Made by a program: the position numbers and the translations under genes | The notes under the pieces: generated by a model | Told to the model about the DNA's origin: nothing | Seen by the model: the letters and a program-made list of their open reading frames with translations, nothing else | Databases searched by the model: none | Virus record (IMG/VR): IMGVR_UViG_3300011116_000174 | Coordinates: 1 to 63,357 of that record | Strand: one strand, 5' to 3' | DNA: 63,357 bases | Source: a virus | Taxonomy: Duplodnaviria; Caudoviricetes | Shown here: positions 4,699 to 56,643 of the stretch, in pieces | Layout of the letters: every line of letters begins with the position of its first letter | Position numbering within the stretch: the first letter of the stretch is position 1

Positions 4699-4727
4699 AT
4701 TATAAACCTATGTTAGTCCTATGTCAA
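4699..4727 (-). promoter_or_regulatory. Consensus sigma70 promoter
   Basis: TTGACA-17 nt-TATAAT; shares TTGACATAGG...TATAATAGTATTAT with the 2064-2092 promoter. Confidence 0.85.
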
Positions 4728-4793
4728 TACCCCTAACTTGGAAACTTGACAGTCAGCGTCCCGCGAAACTCATTCTATAAAGATGTTTGCCAA

Positions 4794-52409: not shown

Positions 52410-52554
52410 TTTTCGCTAATACCGTTAATAGTCTAAGTTCTGCTAGTGTATTTAGTGCATGCTCCTCTGCTTCTTTGTATTCCTTATCTCTCATCGCCTC
52501 TTCGTATAATTTTAAATTTCGTTTTGCCTCTAGTAAAAAAGACGAGTATTCCAT
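52390..52554 (-). CDS. Small hypothetical protein (54 aa)
   Basis: Not in ORF track; MEYSSFLLEAKRNL..., TGATG overlap with the pol stop. Confidence 0.6.
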   Translation of the reverse strand: MEYSSFLLEAKRNLKLYEEAMRDKEYKEAEEHALNTLAELRLLTVLAKNAGQEK

Positions 52555-54395
52555 CAACAATCTCCGTAACTATATCCATAACTTGCTTCACAATTTAAAG
52601 GCAAAGTATCCGCCCACGTTGGTCTCCAACGCATACATTCCATCACGTATTGAAGGGCTTCCTCTTTCTCTTCTTCTTTTGCGATACAGGCAACGGCATC
52701 ATGCACCGTTAAAACTACCCTATATCGTTGGCTTATTTTAATCATTTGTTCAGCAATCACACAACGCGCCACTGCTTGACAAATGTTCTCAATTACTTTA
52801 CCGCCGTAAAGCTTTACCATACCGCGTCTTGTCGGGTATTCAAATTGGGTATTACCCTGAGGGTCTGTAACTTTATCAATACCTTCGTAGCGTTGCCATA
52901 ACCCACTGGGTAATAAAAACCCTGCTTTGTATGGGTCAAATCCAACTACATCAGGCACACCCAAAGAGCATGCTTGCTTAGATATTATGGCGTCTAAGCA
53001 TCTACCCGCTTGTTTCCATAGTTCGGGTATCTTTCCGTAAGTCGCCCGATAAATTTGTATAATGTGGCTCGCTTCATCTTCCGGTATATCGACTCCGAAT
53101 GTTTTAAGTTGGGCTTGGAACTTCTTACCGCCCATGCCGTATCCGGCGCCGAGAATCGTCGTTTTACCCACAAACCTCTCTGCCGTAGATATTTCTGAGA
53201 CATCCTTGCTATATATAGCAGATGCCATGATTTTGTATACGTCCTCGCCATTCTCAAATGCCTCCACCAAATCTGTTTGTCCTGCTAACCACGCAACCGT
53301 TCGCGCTTCAATCTGCGACGAGTCTGCATCAATAACCACATACCCTTCGGGGGCGCATATGGCTTTCTTTAATTTGTTTGCGTTTGCCCCGCGACTAGGT
53401 AAGTTTTGTAGATTAATTTTGTCATCACCGCCCCACCGCCCAGTGTGCGCCGCGTAATATTTAATCGGTACAGGTAACTTCCCACGCTTGGCTATATCAA
53501 TAAAGCGTTGTGTGCGCGTCTCTTCAAGCGTAGTCTTGTTGCCCAATCTTGCTTCGACCAAAGCCTGAACGCGAGGATCAGGATGTGATGCCAGTTGCTT
53601 GAACGCTTCGTCGGTCTTAGCAAATGCCCACGCTTCCTTGCCAGTGCGCGCACTGATCTTTGTAGGGGGGTCTACACCCAAAGACTTTAATATATCTGCA
53701 AACTTCTCGTTTGACATCAGCGTATCTTTGTCTGCCACGCACGCTAGTAGTAGGGCTTCCTTTTTGTTTTTAGTATCCTCTAAGTGTTGCTCAAGTAGTG
53801 GTAGGTTTAGTTCCAGTACCGGTTCAATAAACATCTTTAGAGTTGTGTCGATTACCTTGAGTTCTTTCATAGGAAAGCCACCACCAATCCCAGGCAACAT
53901 AAGTATGTTAAACAACGTGTATGTCAAATCCACATCGTTCCTACAATACTCACCATAGGCATCTATCTCTGACTGGGTAAAGTTGTTACGGCGTTTGCCC
54001 ATAGCATTTATCACTTCCGTGCCTTTTTCGCCGATGTTATAACGTTCAGCTAATACTTTAAGACTACCGCCCGCCTCAACACCATGGGTAGCACGAGCCA
54101 TACAAAGTGTATCGAGCCAACCCTTCGGTTTGATACCATAGCGCCAAGATAAAATAGCGCCATCAAACTGAGTGTTGTGCGCTAGGACTAGGCAGTTCTT
54201 CCAGTCATATAGTTTGGCAAAGCGGGACTCGGTCATGTGTTTGTTGTCATACCAAACAGTTTCGCCGTCGTCTTCTTTCACCGCTACACCGATAACCTCA
54301 AACCGATCATCGCGAATGTACTCCTCGGTCGTCAATCGCGACAAAGAATATTCTCTGTCGTAATACGTTTCAAAATCTACCGTTAATATTTTCAT
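52554..54395 (-). CDS. polA: Family A DNA polymerase with 3'-5' exonuclease
   Basis: DFET, AHN..FD, HTGRW, NLQNLP, DSSQIEAR, RFVGK...LG.GYG, TVHD. Confidence 0.92.
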   Translation of the reverse strand: MKILTVDFETYYDREYSLSRLTTEEYIRDDRFEVIGVAVKEDDGETVWYDNKHMTESRFAKLYDWKNCLVLAHNTQFDGAILSWRYGIKPKGWLDTLCMARATHGVEAGGSLKVLAERYNIGEKGTEVINAMGKRRNNFTQSEIDAYGEYCRNDVDLTYTLFNILMLPGIGGGFPMKELKVIDTTLKMFIEPVLELNLPLLEQHLEDTKNKKEALLLACVADKDTLMSNEKFADILKSLGVDPPTKISARTGKEAWAFAKTDEAFKQLASHPDPRVQALVEARLGNKTTLEETRTQRFIDIAKRGKLPVPIKYYAAHTGRWGGDDKINLQNLPSRGANANKLKKAICAPEGYVVIDADSSQIEARTVAWLAGQTDLVEAFENGEDVYKIMASAIYSKDVSEISTAERFVGKTTILGAGYGMGGKKFQAQLKTFGVDIPEDEASHIIQIYRATYGKIPELWKQAGRCLDAIISKQACSLGVPDVVGFDPYKAGFLLPSGLWQRYEGIDKVTDPQGNTQFEYPTRRGMVKLYGGKVIENICQAVARCVIAEQMIKISQRYRVVLTVHDAVACIAKEEEKEEALQYVMECMRWRPTWADTLPLNCEASYGYSYGDC

Positions 54396-54625
54396 TTGTC
54401 TAACATGTCATCAACAAGGCACTGAGACAATACTTGTGCCAATCCAACCCTATGCGACTTGCGCTCCTCTTGTTCGTCAGTCGTGTAAATAAAAAGAGAG
54501 TCATCTTTGTGCATAGCGATTCCAACAAAGCTAACTATCTCACCATTTTCAAATTCTTTCAATAGGGTTTTCAATGATGAATAAACATCTTCTCGTTTTC
54601 TATTAATTGATACTATATTTGCCAT
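54392..54625 (-). CDS. Hypothetical protein (77 aa)
   Basis: MANIVSIN after AAGGAG, immediately downstream of the array. Confidence 0.7.
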   Translation of the reverse strand: MANIVSINRKREDVYSSLKTLLKEFENGEIVSFVGIAMHKDDSLFIYTTDEQEERKSHRVGLAQVLSQCLVDDMLDK

Positions 54626-54638
54626 TTCTTTTCTCCTT

Positions 54639-55297
54639 GATATCCTCACCCGACCACACCTAGACTCGCATCACCGCACCGTTCCATACCTTACCGAAAA
54701 ATCCATACCATGCCTTACATGACCTTCGCCATACAGCGCCTAGCCGAGCCACGAACTCCTTGCCATAACTCACCCCGCCGTATCGTACCGAACCGAGCCA
54801 TGCCCGAGCGCGAACTCCTTGCCTGACTGAATCCCGCCACTCCTAGCTATAACATGCCGAACCTAGAACTCCGTGTCTTACCAAACTTCGCCGTGCCCGA
54901 CCATGCCGAGCCGTACCGCGCTAGAACCACGATACCCAAACCTTGCCGATCCCAACTTCACCGCACCACACCTCGCCCCGCCTAGTGGGAACCGCAATAC
55001 CCTTGCCAAACCGGGCACGAACTGAACTCACCATGCCCAACCCTGAACTCCTCACTACACCGCACCTTACCCAACCATGCCTCTACTAACCATGAATCCC
55101 TTACCTCACCAGTACAAACCTCGCACCGCCCGACCCGACCTAACCGCATCGCGCATCACCAAAAAATCCATACCGAACCTTTCCTCACCCGACCAGACCC
55201 CGCCGTAGCTAGTCAAGAAGCCCAAGCCTTGCCCTGCCGGATCGGGACAGACCGATCCATGCCGGGACGCGCCATACACTACCGGAGCCTGATGCCC
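54639..55297 (-). ncRNA. Array of 11 putative guide RNAs: (GGY-NN)n pentamer tracts separated by 7-nt GGRNWUY linkers
   Basis: 5-nt periodicity NN-RCC on the + strand; 12 linkers; begins 3 nt after the stop codon of the RAMP-like gene. Confidence 0.85.
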
Positions 55298-55300
55298 TAG

Positions 55301-55912
55301 TTATGCTACTTTTTTGAGTGGCATTTTTACCGCTGCGAACTTTTTAACTTCATAGCGACCATGACGTGGTCTCCAATCGCCGATGCCAACGTAAGAACCC
55401 GCGTCTTCAACCCAACGCTTTAACTGCGCTTCGTTTGCTACGTCTGAGTTAATAGATACTTTGAACTTAGCAGTCCAGTCTTTGAAGTGCGGACGAGTGC
55501 GCATAACCTTTGCCATACCAACACGCACCGCAACACAGATACGATGGTCTTCGCTCTCAACCAACTGATCGACAGTCATTGTTCCGCCTTCGTATGTAAA
55601 CGTAGCATCGGTATCTACAAACATACCTGATAATGCCAATTTACCTTCCTTGCTTTTCTTAGCGCCTTCGACAAGCACCGACTCAAGCACACGACTTGGG
55701 ACAATTACTTCGTTCTTTTTGTTTAGGTATAACCCTGCACGATACTCGATGTTTGCCATAGCTTCATAGTCTGTATCGGTTTTCTTGCGCTTGCTACTAA
55801 TTTCTTTCATAGCTTTGCTAAACGGATTAAGCGGGTCTGCCGTTTGTCCGTTGTGCATAATCAATGAATCACCGCTTAATTCAACTTCATATTGTGTGTA
55901 GCCTTTTGGCAT
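55301..55912 (-). CDS. Cas7/RAMP-like RNA-binding protein (putative guide-RNA filament subunit)
   Basis: N-terminal strand + LIMHN; IVPSRVLESVL..GA helix; RTRPHF..W; C-terminal Gly-rich loop AGSYVGIGDWRPRHGRY; GAGGAG RBS. Confidence 0.75.
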   Translation of the reverse strand: MPKGYTQYEVELSGDSLIMHNGQTADPLNPFSKAMKEISSKRKKTDTDYEAMANIEYRAGLYLNKKNEVIVPSRVLESVLVEGAKKSKEGKLALSGMFVDTDATFTYEGGTMTVDQLVESEDHRICVAVRVGMAKVMRTRPHFKDWTAKFKVSINSDVANEAQLKRWVEDAGSYVGIGDWRPRHGRYEVKKFAAVKMPLKKVA

Positions 55913-55934
55913 GTTACTCTCCTCTTTATTTAAA

Positions 55935-56351
55935 TTATGGACGTCGTGATCGTTTGATCTCTTTCGTCCGCACAGTTTTAGGAACTTTTACCTTCCTCTT
56001 TTTTGGCTTGGAAGATTGTTTTGGTTTAATCTCCCTAGTCAAAACCTTTCGCAACGTCTGATCGCCAAGCGCCCGACGTCTACTTCTAATTGATTCCGTA
56101 ATCCCATCATGACAAGACTCGCATAACATAATCACGTCGTTGATAGTTTCCTCACCCCATGTGTCGTAGTGTCGATGATGTAACTCCATAGCGTATTCTT
56201 CGCTTGACCGCCAACATGTTCCGCACTGATACATTTGTTGTAGCGCTTTTAGGTTACGCAACTGAAACCAATGATCGGGATTTGGGTGGGACTTCGCGGG
56301 ACGTAGGACTTTATGTCCGTCGATCTCCCTAACTCTTTTCAATTGAGTCAT
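55935..56351 (-). CDS. HNH endonuclease with basic C-terminal tail
   Basis: CGTC...ELHHRHY..WGEE...LCESCH. Confidence 0.8.
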   Translation of the reverse strand: MTQLKRVREIDGHKVLRPAKSHPNPDHWFQLRNLKALQQMYQCGTCWRSSEEYAMELHHRHYDTWGEETINDVIMLCESCHDGITESIRSRRRALGDQTLRKVLTREIKPKQSSKPKKRKVKVPKTVRTKEIKRSRRP

Positions 56352-56643
56352 ACTTTAGCCTTCCAAATACTGTTGTACTGCCCAAACTTAACTTTTGGGT
56401 ATGTCTTGCTCTTTTAAGTGCTTCATCAAAAGGGTCATCCTCTTCTGCATGTAACAACTCTTTCATAACATCTCTAGTAAATTCGTCCGCCACTAACTTG
56501 CGTGCTTCATCGGTAAGTGGTTTTAGTTCGTTAGGAATGTATTCGTTATATTCAGCCAAAAGCGGAACCCACCTACCGCCCTTCATAAACTCCTCGGGGT
56601 GTGTCTTGATACGCTCGAGCAATAACCGGACGCCCTCGTTCAT
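56329..56643 (-). CDS. Hypothetical protein
   Basis: LLERIKTHPEEF; coupled. Confidence 0.7.
   Translation of the reverse strand: MNEGVRLLLERIKTHPEEFMKGGRWVPLLAEYNEYIPNELKPLTDEARKLVADEFTRDVMKELLHAEEDDPFDEALKRARHTQKLSLGSTTVFGRLKYDSIEKS

What the first reader, a model, noticed from the sequence alone, without database searches (positions are those of the whole stretch)
55101..55162. Guide G3 decodes to the catalytic-Tyr motif of P4-like integrases (EAAYRRGDLLEK)
NN string in RNA sense: UU GA GC GC UA CG CG GG GA UU CU GA AA. Read as codon positions 1-2 with every third base skipped: [FL][DE]AAYRRG[DE][FL]L[DE][KN]. This matches the C-terminal motif (V)EAAYRRGDL(L/F)EK of P4-family tyrosine integrases in proteobacterial prophages, satellites and islands. 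This phage has no integrase, so the target is foreign. It is the strongest single piece of evidence for a gapped NN-x-NN-x code.
Basis: partly seen in the sequence, partly recalled or inferred. Interest (0 to 1): 0.95.

Follow-up and report, generated by a model that had tools for sequence, protein, structure and literature searches.

The report
Phage VIPR guide against integrase genes
This stretch is one guide RNA in a phage's VIPR array, a recently described CRISPR-like system that reads DNA two bases at a time and skips every third, and its code matches the active-site tyrosine motif of P4-type integrase genes carried by other mobile elements.

Summary
It is one unit of a roughly 650-nt, ~10-unit array, the only such region in this 63-kb phage. 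Just upstream lies a 203-aa gene homologous to the solved SUSP1 Vipr protein (E 7.7e-30), with the GG-binding residues conserved.

Three 2026 bioRxiv preprints describe this system (VIPR) and its "1-nt skip" code, so the code itself is already known.

Written as NNx, the guide has 56 exact matches in bacterial genomes and 6 in viral contigs. All 62 read in frame as EAAYRRG[D/E]LL[D/E]K near the C-terminus of integrase-like frames, and 22 of 22 tested carry the P4/CP4-type domains.

Controls found nothing:
- two shuffled dinucleotide orders;
- the 0-skip form;
- the 2-skip form (0/301 genomes, against 18/301 for 1-skip);
- the pattern read backwards.

The phage has no recombinase and no self-match.

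Related arrays carry a second guide against the same integrases (TFRDWAAE box).

Verdict: a real new guide-target pair in a known kind of system. The host, RNA processing and in vivo effect are untested.

The parts
55935..56351 (-). HNH endonuclease gene (138 aa) directly upstream of vipr; candidate accessory (vap) gene
   Evidence: Pfam HNH, E 1.2e-5, above the cut-off. It is conserved directly upstream of vipr in 14 of the 14 relatives whose locus extends upstream (62-100% identity). Its role is inferred.
55301..55912 (-). vipr gene (203 aa), a RAMP-fold protein that binds the GGY of each repeat
   Evidence: phmmer against PDB chain 36pp_D 'SUSP1 Vipr protein' gives E 7.7e-30; the family profile gives 2.4e-43. 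H20, R140, D179, W180 and R181 align with SUSP1 H17, R138, D177, W178 and R179 (roles from 10.64898/2026.04.26.720927, section 5). The AF2 model has pLDDT 91. The top Foldseek hits are Cas7-type subunits of type III and VII complexes, E about 1e-5, TM about 0.5.
54641..55300 (-). vrRNA array: about 10 contiguous units of 8-12 GGYNN pentamers, each closed by a 9-10-nt tail GG(G/A)KTYNNN
   Evidence: DP segmentation, composition statistics and uniqueness in the genome. The same feature lies downstream of the vipr homologue in 16 of 16 related IMG/VR loci.
55101..55160 (-). Guide 'G3': 12 pentamers with NN = GA GC GC TA CG CG GG GA TT CT GA AA; matches the EAAYRRGDLLEK codons of P4-type integrase genes under the 1-nt skip rule
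   Evidence: controls.
55092..55100 (-). Tail of G3 (GGGATTCAT)
   Evidence: The same class of motif closes units in all relatives.
55161..55169 (-).
54938..54992 (-). Unit U5: eight consecutive NN (GG GA GT GC GA TG TC AA) match the first 23 nt of tRNA-Ser(CGA) genes that sit next to targeted integrases
   Evidence: The full 11-NN pattern had 0 hits in viral contigs.
54646..54695 (-). Unit U10: NN = AA AT AC GC GA GA TA GT CG GA; matches KMTAEEYVRD at the N-terminus of family-A DNA polymerases of other phage contigs
   Evidence: 6 exact hits in viral contigs, 5 of them in PF00476 polymerases. The phage's own polymerase site matches only 6/10 NN.
52554..54395 (-). The phage's own DNA polymerase A (context; the homologous site RLTTEEYIRD at about 54338-54309 escapes U10)

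Best explanation
55101-55160 (minus strand) is one guide of a phage-encoded VIPR array.

Proposed mechanism:
1. The array is transcribed on the minus strand with or after HNH-vipr. This is inferred: no terminator-like site was found in 54300-56500 and no promoter-like site on the minus strand within the array.
2. Vipr protomers (gene 55301-55912) bind one per pentamer. They sequester each GGY and expose the NN dinucleotides. This is shown for SUSP1 and inferred here from homology and conserved contact residues.
3. The 11-12 NN pair with double-stranded DNA while skipping every third base. The guide therefore reads codon positions 1-2 of ...E-A-A-Y-R-R-G-D-L-L-E(-K), the C-terminal tyrosine box of P4/CP4-type tyrosine integrases, whatever the synonymous codon usage.
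4. The guide has the sense of the coding strand, so it would pair with the template strand.

Consequence. The phage has no recombinase, so the target is foreign: satellites, islands, ICEs or prophages that use such integrases. Binding would block expression of a catalytically complete integrase and so hold the element in the chromosome. This follows what was shown for SUSP1 vrRNA4 against a satellite serine recombinase. Alternatively, the conserved HNH neighbour might cut the bound DNA.

Shown here: the anatomy, the homology and the guide-target code match with controls. Inferred: expression, RNA processing, binding and the biological outcome.
For: Array and guide anatomy.

Vipr identity:
- PDB 36pp_D 'SUSP1 Vipr protein', E 7.7e-30 with the single sequence and 2.4e-43 with the profile.
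- The five GG-contacting residues are conserved.
- Cas7-like fold.
- The homologue in phiSUSP1 (KT454805.2, 28474-29061) is flanked by GGYNN tracts.

Code match:
- 56 + 6 exact hits, 62/62 in frame as EAAYRRG[DE]LL[DE]K. 41/62 lie in frames of at least 350 aa, 12 are cut by a contig or locus end, and 9 are short remnants.
- 22/22 of the full-length frames handed to Pfam have PF13356 + PF22022 + PF00589.
- PDB relatives of their N-terminal domains are named 'CP4-like integrase'.

Controls:
- Shuffles gave 0 and 0 hits, against 6 real hits in viral contigs.
- The 0-skip form gave 0 hits.
- The 2-skip form gave 0/301 genomes, against 18/301 for 1-skip at up to 2 mismatches, with the backward control at 0/301.
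- In 20 local shuffles the best match reached 7-9 of 12 NN.

No self-target:
- 0 hits at up to 3 mismatches in the window.
- The best self match is 6/12 NN.
- No recombinase in the genome.

Independent convergence:
- Related arrays (L001, L003, L010, L012, L014) carry a guide reading (T)FRDWAAE, the HGFRSTFRDWAAE box of the same integrases.
- 11 of 344 8-NN guide windows hit the 62 loci, against 0 in 29 shuffles and 1 in one shuffle, of 30. Five of the 11 are G3 by construction.

Guide conservation: the same guide occurs in four other arrays (L002, L013, L094, L095), at different array positions and with Vipr down to 78% identity. 10-11 of the window's 12 NN are kept while the degenerate GGY positions differ.

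Literature:
- The 1-nt skip rule, wobble alignment and targets on competing elements (10.64898/2026.04.26.720920, Results and Methods sections 17 part 1, 26 and 27).
- The filament/triplex mechanism (10.64898/2026.04.26.720927, abstract and section 5).
- A recombinase active site as target, immobilising a satellite (10.64898/2026.10.15.759431, section 6 and passages).
Against: - Nothing has been tested in this phage. The host is unknown, and co-occurrence of phage and target in one cell is not shown.
- Four of the 12 GGY positions in this guide are degenerate. The first preprint reports that perturbing GGY abolishes silencing, although it also notes frequent internal degeneracy in natural vrRNAs.
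- Exact 12/12 targets are spread over three proteobacterial classes (by my reading of the record titles: about 18 alpha, 25 beta, 7 gamma, 6 unclassified). They occur in only 56 of the 185,579 species genomes held, so no specific target element is identified.
- Most target genomes appear GC-rich (my recollection for the named genera; not measured), while the phage windows run about 40-55% GC.
- vrRNA boundaries are unproven. The tails are only 9-10 nt, unlike the roughly 35-nt structured SUSP1 tail.
- The target lies about 30 codons before the stop codon, so a transcription block there is an unusual place for silencing.
- No other guide of these arrays hit the roughly 100 kb of island DNA fetched next to five targeted integrases.
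Confidence: 0.82

Rival explanations
1. The array is a real VIPR array, but this unit is a decaying or inactive guide, or its integrase match has no consequence because the phage's host carries no matching element.
For: Four of 12 GGY positions are degenerate. L001, with an identical Vipr and a near-identical polymerase, has replaced this unit with another guide. The four metatranscriptome runs laid did not help either way. The host is unidentified.
Against: The NN string is kept in five arrays, including three (L013, L094, L095) of a divergent lineage (L013 Vipr 78% identical). Across these the GGY-position bases change while 10-11 of the window's 12 NN stay. That is the pattern expected for selection on the guide letters. 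L001's replacement guide targets the same integrase family, so the target class is maintained.
Confidence: 0.1
2. The match is coincidence: the NN string resembles an integrase motif by chance after free choice of register, strand and motif.
For: The first claimed position (UU = F/L) does not match.
Against: There are 62 exact matches of 24 fixed bases where about 0.005 is expected (expectation is my estimate). All 62 are in one frame of one protein family. There were 0 hits for two shuffles, for the 0-skip and 2-skip forms and for the backward control. A second, independent guide in relatives hits another box of the same proteins.
Confidence: 0.02
3. The G-rich pentamer tract is not a guide array but works through bulk properties. 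It might be a G-quadruplex or R-loop-forming leader or origin next to the polymerase gene, or a sponge for a ring- or filament-forming RNA-binding protein.
For: This was my first reading, before the literature search. The tract lies in the replication module as a leader of orf85 and the DNA polymerase, has a strong GC skew of -0.49, and has GG every 5 nt.
Against: It does not explain why positions 4-5 are near-random within arrays yet spell conserved codons of foreign genes. It also does not explain the adjacent Vipr homologue with intact GG-binding residues. Rfam has no match.
Confidence: 0.03
4. Same recognition, different outcome: the conserved HNH neighbour acts as a nuclease accessory protein, so the bound integrase gene (and the other targets) is cut rather than silenced.
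For: The HNH gene is conserved directly upstream of vipr in 14/14 relatives that extend upstream, and its HNH domain scores above the Pfam cut-off. The first preprint lists HNH-domain Vap proteins and nuclease vaps in types III-V (passages).
Against: Free-standing HNH homing endonucleases are common in phage replication modules (general knowledge). The preprint says nuclease vaps occur only in host-defence types III and V, not in phage-borne systems. The closest characterised Vipr (SUSP1, type II) silences. No interaction was tested.
Confidence: 0.25

Closest known systems
VIPR system of Escherichia phage SUSP1 (type II; bioRxiv 10.64898/2026.04.26.720920 and 10.64898/2026.04.26.720927)
   Same: - A roughly 200-aa Vipr protein: 32% identity over 176 residues, and PDB 36pp_D at E 7.7e-30.
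- The GG-contacting residues are conserved.
- GGYNN tandem repeats with hypervariable NN lie next to vipr.
- The 1-nt skip code has the skipped base on codon wobble positions.
- Targets are on foreign mobile elements, and there is no self-target.
   Different: - Here one contiguous ~10-unit array follows vipr, with only 9-10-nt tails. It lacks the separate ~100-nt vrRNAs that SUSP1 has, each with its own flanks and a ~35-nt structured tail (against 24).
- There is no vap1-like gene between vipr and the array.
- A conserved HNH gene lies upstream.
- The phage is an uncultivated 63-kb phage with no megablast relative in the phage collection.
SUSP1 vrRNA4 against the F5 satellite excision recombinase (bioRxiv 10.64898/2026.10.15.759431, section 6 and Discussion passages)
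   Same: The guide is aligned to codon positions 1-2 of active-site residues of a mobile element's recombinase, so that escape mutations would damage the enzyme. The expected outcome is immobilisation of the element.
   Different: - That target is a serine-type recombinase (a passage names the catalytic serine), read over an 18-bp footprint in one E. coli satellite family.
- Here the target is the tyrosine box of P4/CP4-type tyrosine integrases, read over 33-35 bp. Exact matches occur in 56 species of three proteobacterial classes.
- 'Tyrosine' occurs 0 times in that paper, and 'integrase' 0 times in the first preprint. Supplements could not be read.
'Staggered vrRNA arrays' mentioned in the first VIPR preprint (fig. 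S18 legend only)
   Same: [quoted passage not shown]
   Different: Only the legend was readable, without the figure or sequences. Whether this array is of that class, and which of types I-VII it belongs to, could not be decided.
Class 1 CRISPR effector backbones (Cas7/Csm3/Cmr4 filaments on crRNA)
   Same: The fold is RAMP-like: the top Foldseek hits are Cas7-type subunits of type III and VII complexes, E about 1e-5, TM 0.45-0.55. One protomer sits per repeat unit of the RNA, and bases are flipped out periodically.
   Different: The period is 5 nt, with 3 of 5 bases sequestered. There is no long repeat-spacer array. No cas genes were seen among the flanking genes examined; I ran no dedicated cas search. 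Target pairing is non-contiguous.

Membership tests
VIPR (Vipr + vrRNA) system | A Vipr protein: a small RAMP-fold homologue of the characterised Vipr | tested here: met
   PDB 36pp_D 'SUSP1 Vipr protein' at E 7.7e-30 and 2.4e-43 with the profile. AF2 pLDDT 91. Foldseek top hits are Cas7-type RAMPs.
VIPR (Vipr + vrRNA) system | Residues that recognise G1, G2 and Y3 of the repeat (SUSP1 H17, R138, D177, W178, R179) | tested here: met
   They align with H20, R140, D179, W180 and R181. H20, R140 and R181 are invariant and D179 nearly invariant in 32 homologues; W180 is the consensus residue there. The steric residues E71/M72 are not conserved (R74/V75).
VIPR (Vipr + vrRNA) system | At least 4 tandem YNNGG/GGYNN repeats next to vipr, with GGY conserved and NN hypervariable | tested here: met
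   109 pentamers: G1 94/109, G2 90/109, Y3 91/109. N4 and N5 have 1.95 and 1.94 bits of entropy. The same holds in 16/16 related loci.
VIPR (Vipr + vrRNA) system | An invariable structured 3' tail after each repeat tract | tested here: inconclusive
   Each unit ends in a short conserved motif GG(G/A)KTYNNN. It shares the GGGTA start with the SUSP1 tail, but it is only 9-10 nt long and no fold was tested.
VIPR (Vipr + vrRNA) system | Natural targets found with the 1-nt skip rule, with skipped bases on codon wobble positions, on foreign elements | tested here: met
   G3: 62/62 hits in frame in integrase genes. The 0-skip and 2-skip forms gave 0 hits. U10: 5 of 6 hits lie in DNA polymerases of other phages.
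VIPR (Vipr + vrRNA) system | No self-target at 80% NN match or better | tested here: met
   The best self matches of nine units are 5-6 NN, at most 67%. The G3 pattern has 0 hits at up to 3 mismatches in the window.
VIPR (Vipr + vrRNA) system | An accessory vap gene in the locus | tested here: inconclusive
   An HNH gene is conserved upstream in 14/14 relatives that extend upstream. There is no vap1-like gene. The downstream 85-aa ORF is not conserved. Homology to a named vap could not be tested, because no sequences were available.
VIPR (Vipr + vrRNA) system | vrRNAs are expressed and bound by Vipr | not testable with these tools
   Only assembled contigs of RNA libraries were available, and they cannot show transcription or RNA ends.
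P4/CP4-type tyrosine integrase (the target family) | Arm-DNA-bind_3 + central + catalytic Phage_integrase domains | tested here: met
   22/22 full-length target frames, taken from 41 such frames among the 62 hits. PDB relatives of the N-terminal domains are named 'CP4-like integrase' or 'Phage integrase'.
P4/CP4-type tyrosine integrase (the target family) | The matched Y is the catalytic tyrosine | not tested
   This is inferred from the invariant ...HGFR...LAH-x9-Y arrangement in alignment A1 and from general knowledge of tyrosine recombinases. No solved catalytic domain of this subfamily was found.

The most novel reading that the evidence does not exclude
This uncultivated phage lineage carries a compact, nuclease-associated (HNH) VIPR variant. 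Its contiguous array holds 'family-level' guides, which read invariant catalytic-motif codons rather than one element's sequence. Three kinds of target are seen:
- the Tyr box of P4-type tyrosine integrases, and in sister phages their HGFRSTFRDWAAE box, across alpha-, beta- and gammaproteobacteria;
- the N-terminal motif of rival phages' DNA polymerases;
- the 5' end of the tRNA-Ser(CGA) gene that lies directly upstream of such integrases.

On this reading one small array would disarm whole classes of integrative elements and competitors in hosts the phage has never met. It might do so by cutting DNA rather than by silencing.
Probability: 0.3. Interest if true: 0.7.

Novelty: new member of a known kind. 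Interest (0 to 1): 0.5.

Why it matters
The finding therefore confirms that work independently, from a far-removed, uncultivated phage whose Vipr is only 32% identical to SUSP1's.
- It adds a concrete guide-target pair for tyrosine integrases. Because every wobble base is skipped, one roughly 60-nt RNA matches integrase genes across three classes of Proteobacteria.
- Together with the sister guide against the HGFR...RDWAAE box and the polymerase-directed guide, this suggests that phage VIPR arrays are stocked with guides against invariant catalytic codons of competitors. Such targets would be hard for a competitor to mutate away.
- The guides can also serve as probes for the phage's unknown host and parasites.
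- The compact array with 9-10-nt tails and a conserved HNH neighbour is a testable variant for how vrRNAs are processed and whether some phage VIPRs cut DNA.

Tried and rejected
Early readings, dropped.
- Before the literature search I considered a G-quadruplex or R-loop origin, a TRAP-like ring-protein leader, a CsrA sponge, a Rho-loading site on the C-rich strand and primase-site clusters.
- I dropped them once the Vipr homology and the guide-target matches appeared.

Searches that found nothing.
- Rfam: no match in 53500-56500.
- Megablast of 54300-56000 against phages: no match.
- tRNA scan of the window: none.

Tool status.
I therefore could not check data S3/S4 of the first preprint, or the supplements of the October preprint, for this clade, its type, or integrase/tRNA targets.

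Other guides.
- The full U5 pattern had 0 hits in viral contigs.
- The U6 pattern had 0 hits in viral contigs.
- U1, U3, U4, U7, U8 and U9 gave nothing above shuffles on the 62 target loci.
- I did not scan those six units against any public collection.
- No guide beyond the three known ones hit about 100 kb of island DNA from three genomes.

Host.
- The host is not identified.
- The GC difference between phage and targets is left unexplained.

RNA evidence.
- Contigs of four metatranscriptome runs from two studies lie on 54712-55055, 55163-55322 and 55291-55579, at depth 2-4.
- None covers 55101-55160, the polymerase side or the 5' part of vipr.
- Contigs cannot show transcription, ends or absence, so I draw no conclusion.
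- The run listing names aquatic, wastewater and freshwater metagenomes at shares of 0.46 or less. I do not use it as habitat evidence.

Other checks.
- Pseudomonas phage Medea1 has a Vipr homologue (39% identity) but no comparable array in the annotated stretch. I did not read its sequence.
- No PDB structure of a catalytic domain of this integrase subfamily was found, so the tyrosine could not be fixed structurally.
- The promoter/terminator scan found no terminator-like site and only weak promoter-like sites, so the transcription unit is inferred.
Full report
WHAT IS THERE

The window is a complete 63,357-bp virus record with a CheckV completeness of 100%. Between a 203-aa gene (55301-55912, minus strand) and an 85-aa ORF followed by a family-A DNA polymerase (54392-54649 and 52554-54395, minus strand) lies about 650 nt without a convincing ORF.

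That stretch is C-rich on the plus strand, with a GC skew of -0.49. On the minus strand, GG recurs every 5 nt:
- The autocorrelation is 58 at lag 5 and 49 at lag 10, against 3 and 5 at lags 2 and 3.
- A simple dynamic-programming segmentation gives 109 pentamers in 55214-54641.
- G is at position 1 in 94 of them, G at position 2 in 90, and a pyrimidine at position 3 in 91.
- Positions 4 and 5 are almost random, at 1.95 and 1.94 bits.

The pentamers fall into about ten units of 8-12. Each unit is closed by a 9-10-nt motif of the form GG(G/A)KTYNNN. No other place in the genome, on either strand, has such in-phase GGY pentamers.

THE FINDING'S STRETCH

Coordinates 55162-55101 read, on the minus strand, TT + GGTGA TGCGC GATGC GGTTA GGTCG GGTCG GGCGG TGCGA GGTTT GTACT GGTGA GGTAA, followed by the tail GGGATTCAT.
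- Eight of the 12 pentamers are GGY.
- The 'UU' in front is the end of the T-run of the preceding unit's tail.

WHAT KIND OF THING IT IS

A full-text search for pentanucleotide repeats in phages led to bioRxiv 10.64898/2026.04.26.720920. I read its Results and Methods sections 17 (part 1), 26 and 27, plus passages. It describes VIPR systems:
- A roughly 20-kDa RAMP-fold protein, Vipr, works with vrRNAs made of 9-16 YNNGG repeats and a 3' tail.
- The NN dinucleotides pair with double-stranded DNA while one base is skipped between them.
- The skipped base falls mostly on codon wobble positions.
- The natural targets lie on satellites, prophages and rival VIPR systems.

A companion preprint, 10.64898/2026.04.26.720927 (abstract and section 5), shows one Vipr protomer per repeat. 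It names H17, R138, D177, W178 and R179 as the contacts to GGY.

The 203-aa protein here is a Vipr:
- It matches PDB chain 36pp_D, 'SUSP1 Vipr protein', at E 7.7e-30. A profile of 32 homologues matches at 2.4e-43.
- All five contact residues align with identical residues: H20, R140, D179, W180, R181.
- The AlphaFold model has pLDDT 91. Its best structural matches are Cas7-type backbone subunits of type III and VII CRISPR complexes.
- In phage phiSUSP1 (KT454805.2) the homologue is ALH47069.1. It sits between two intergenic regions full of GGYNN repeats.

All 16 IMG/VR loci that encode a relative of the protein, down to 42% identity, have a period-5 GG tract directly downstream.

Written as NNx, the guide is GANGCNGCNTANCGNCGNGGNGANTTNCTNGANAA.

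Hits:
- It has 56 exact matches in the one-genome-per-species collection and 6 in IMG/VR.
- With 24 fixed bases and about 1.2e12 positions, I estimate about 0.005 matches by chance.
- All 62 matches lie in the same reading frame as EAAYRRG[D/E]LL[D/E]K, preceded by ...ALAH-x8 and followed by R-x-x-LM-x-x-W.
- 41 of the 62 frames are at least 350 aa long, 12 are cut by a contig or locus end, and 9 are short remnants.
- I handed 22 of the 41 long frames to Pfam. All 22 have Arm-DNA-bind_3, Phage_int_M and Phage_integrase, the P4/CP4-type architecture.
- Solved N-terminal domains of relatives are named 'CP4-like integrase'.
- By the record titles all hosts are Proteobacteria. My own assignment of the names gives about 18 alpha, 25 beta, 7 gamma and 6 unclassified.

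Controls:
- Two re-orderings of the same 12 dinucleotides gave 0 and 0 hits in IMG/VR, against 6 for the real pattern.
- The 0-skip string gave 0 hits.
- In an evenly drawn sample of 301 genomes of one order, the 1-skip pattern with up to 2 mismatches hit 18 genomes. All of these read EAAYRR-like.
- In the same 301 genomes the backward control hit 0 and the 2-skip version hit 0.

None of the 62 targets has F or L there.

THE TARGET IS FOREIGN

- The phage has no match to the tyrosine-recombinase, resolvase or Arm-domain families.
- The pattern has no match in the window even with three mismatches.
- The best self match of this guide is 6 of 12 NN.

INDEPENDENT SUPPORT FROM RELATIVES

The arrays of related phages are mosaics of shared and different units.

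This guide recurs in L002 (11 of 12 NN) and in L013, L094 and L095 (10 of the window's 12 NN; one NN differs and the twelfth pentamer is absent).
- L013's Vipr is 78% identical to the window's.
- The guide sits at different positions in those arrays.
- The bases at the degenerate 'GGY' positions differ between copies (TGC/GGT, GTA/GGA), while the NN are kept.

L001 has an identical Vipr but lacks this unit. In its place it carries CG GA TG GC GC GA GA AC, which reads RDWAAE...

Longer versions of that guide in L003, L010, L012 and L014 read (T)FRDWAAE. This is the HGFRSTFRDWAAE box of the same integrases, and they hit up to 17 of the 62 target loci.

Overall, 11 of 344 eight-dinucleotide guide windows hit the 62 loci. 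In 30 shuffles, 29 gave 0 hits and one gave 1. Five of the 11 are G3 itself and so are not independent.

HOW IT MOST LIKELY WORKS

Shown elsewhere and inferred here: Vipr coats the RNA with one protomer per pentamer, hides the GGY and presents the NN.

The guide has the sequence of the coding strand, so it would pair with the template strand of the integrase gene over 33-35 bp. That pairing ignores wobble bases.

The October preprint 10.64898/2026.10.15.759431 (section 6 and passages) shows that a SUSP1 guide against active-site codons of a satellite's recombinase keeps the satellite from excising. Losing VIPR exposes the phage to parasitism.

By analogy, this guide would stop production of a complete P4-type integrase. 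A block roughly 30 codons before the stop would still remove the tyrosine. That would hold satellites, islands or prophages in place during infection.

Whether the outcome is silencing or cutting is open. An HNH endonuclease gene is conserved directly upstream of vipr in 14 of the 14 relatives that extend that far. The first preprint lists HNH-domain accessory proteins, but it assigns nuclease partners to host-borne types.

WHAT SPEAKS AGAINST, OR IS MISSING

- No experiment exists for this phage, and the host is unknown.
- The exact targets are spread over three classes, so the true target element is not identified.
- Four of the twelve GGY positions are degenerate.
- The tails are far shorter than SUSP1's, and the RNA ends are unknown.
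- The RNA-library contigs laid on the region cannot show transcription, and none covers this unit.
- No further guide hit the island DNA next to five targeted integrases.

COMPARISON AND NOVELTY

The system is a member of the VIPR kind (see the membership table).

It differs from the characterised type II loci in three ways:
- a contiguous multi-unit array with minimal tails, possibly the 'staggered' class known to me only from a figure legend;
- the lack of a vap1-like gene;
- the conserved HNH neighbour.

The guide-target pair is new as far as I could search:
- 'Integrase' and 'tRNA' occur 0 times in the main text of the first preprint.
- 'Tyrosine', 'polymerase' and 'tRNA' occur 0 times in the October preprint.
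- Supplements were closed, and the library search for vrRNA/Vipr listed four relevant preprints. I opened three and saw the fourth only in the search listing.

The principle, a wobble-skipping guide on a recombinase active site, is already in print. I therefore rate this a new member of a known kind, with moderate interest.

SIDE OBSERVATIONS

- The last unit (54695-54646) matches KMTAEEYVRD at the N-terminus of family-A polymerases of other phage contigs. It has 6 exact hits, 5 of them in such polymerases. These are 30% identical to the phage's own enzyme, whose homologous site matches only 6 of 10 NN.
- Unit 54992-54938 matches the first 23 nt of tRNA-Ser(CGA) genes in four of the target loci. 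In three of them the tRNA lies directly upstream of the integrase on the same strand.

Noticed in passing
window 54646-54695 (-); L087-L092: The last unit of the array (NN AA AT AC GC GA GA TA GT CG GA) has 6 exact 1-skip matches in IMG/VR. Five read KMTAEEYVRD at residues ~20-45 of family-A DNA polymerases on 45-61-kb phage contigs of 60-63% GC. The phage's own polymerase has RLTTEEYIRD at the homologous site and matches only 6/10 NN. This looks like a guide against rival phages' replication genes.
   Followed up: yes
window 54938-54992 (-); L054, L025, L040, L032: Eight consecutive NN of this unit match positions 1-23 of tRNA-Ser(CGA) genes. In three of the four loci the tRNA lies directly upstream of the targeted integrase on the same strand. 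The unit is shared by many related arrays. The full 11-NN pattern found nothing in IMG/VR. The purpose is unknown; blocking read-through into int, or a decoy, are possibilities.
   Followed up: partly
L001 (~4712-4756), L003, L010, L012, L014 arrays: Related phages carry a guide reading (T)FRDWAAE, the HGFRSTFRDWAAE box of the same P4-type integrases. In L001 it sits where the window has G3. The lineage therefore keeps an anti-integrase guide but swaps which catalytic box it reads.
   Followed up: yes
window 55935-56351 (-): An HNH endonuclease gene is conserved directly upstream of vipr in 14/14 relatives that extend upstream (62-100% identity). It may be a nuclease-type accessory gene of a phage-borne VIPR, or merely a resident homing endonuclease.
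   Followed up: partly
window 54392-54649 (-): The 85-aa ORF between the array and the DNA polymerase has no tblastn match in any of the 16 related loci. That includes L001, whose polymerase is 99% identical. Relatives have unrelated small genes there, so this is a variable slot.
   Followed up: partly
L016 527-2160: A distant relative (Vipr 42% identical, GC-rich) has crisp single units. Each starts after CGTACAACTyrCGrC, runs for about 13 NNGGN pentamers and ends in GGCTTGGACTTTTTTCrAC. The units are scattered over several intergenic regions, some just in front of genes. This is a different array architecture from the window's.
   Followed up: no
window 54869-54989; runs X17, X10: One RNA-library contig joins 54869 to 54989 with 54 other letters in between, meaning one or two units are replaced by a different one. 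This agrees with cassette-like turnover of units between strains. G3 itself sits at the 2nd or 4th position in other arrays (L013, L094, L095).
   Followed up: partly
window 55230-55262 (-): The first stretch after the vipr stop codon contains an inverted repeat (GGATCGG...CCGATCC) inside weakly periodic pentamers. It is shared with L005, L007 and L008. It may be a processing or terminator-like element, or a degenerate unit.
   Followed up: no
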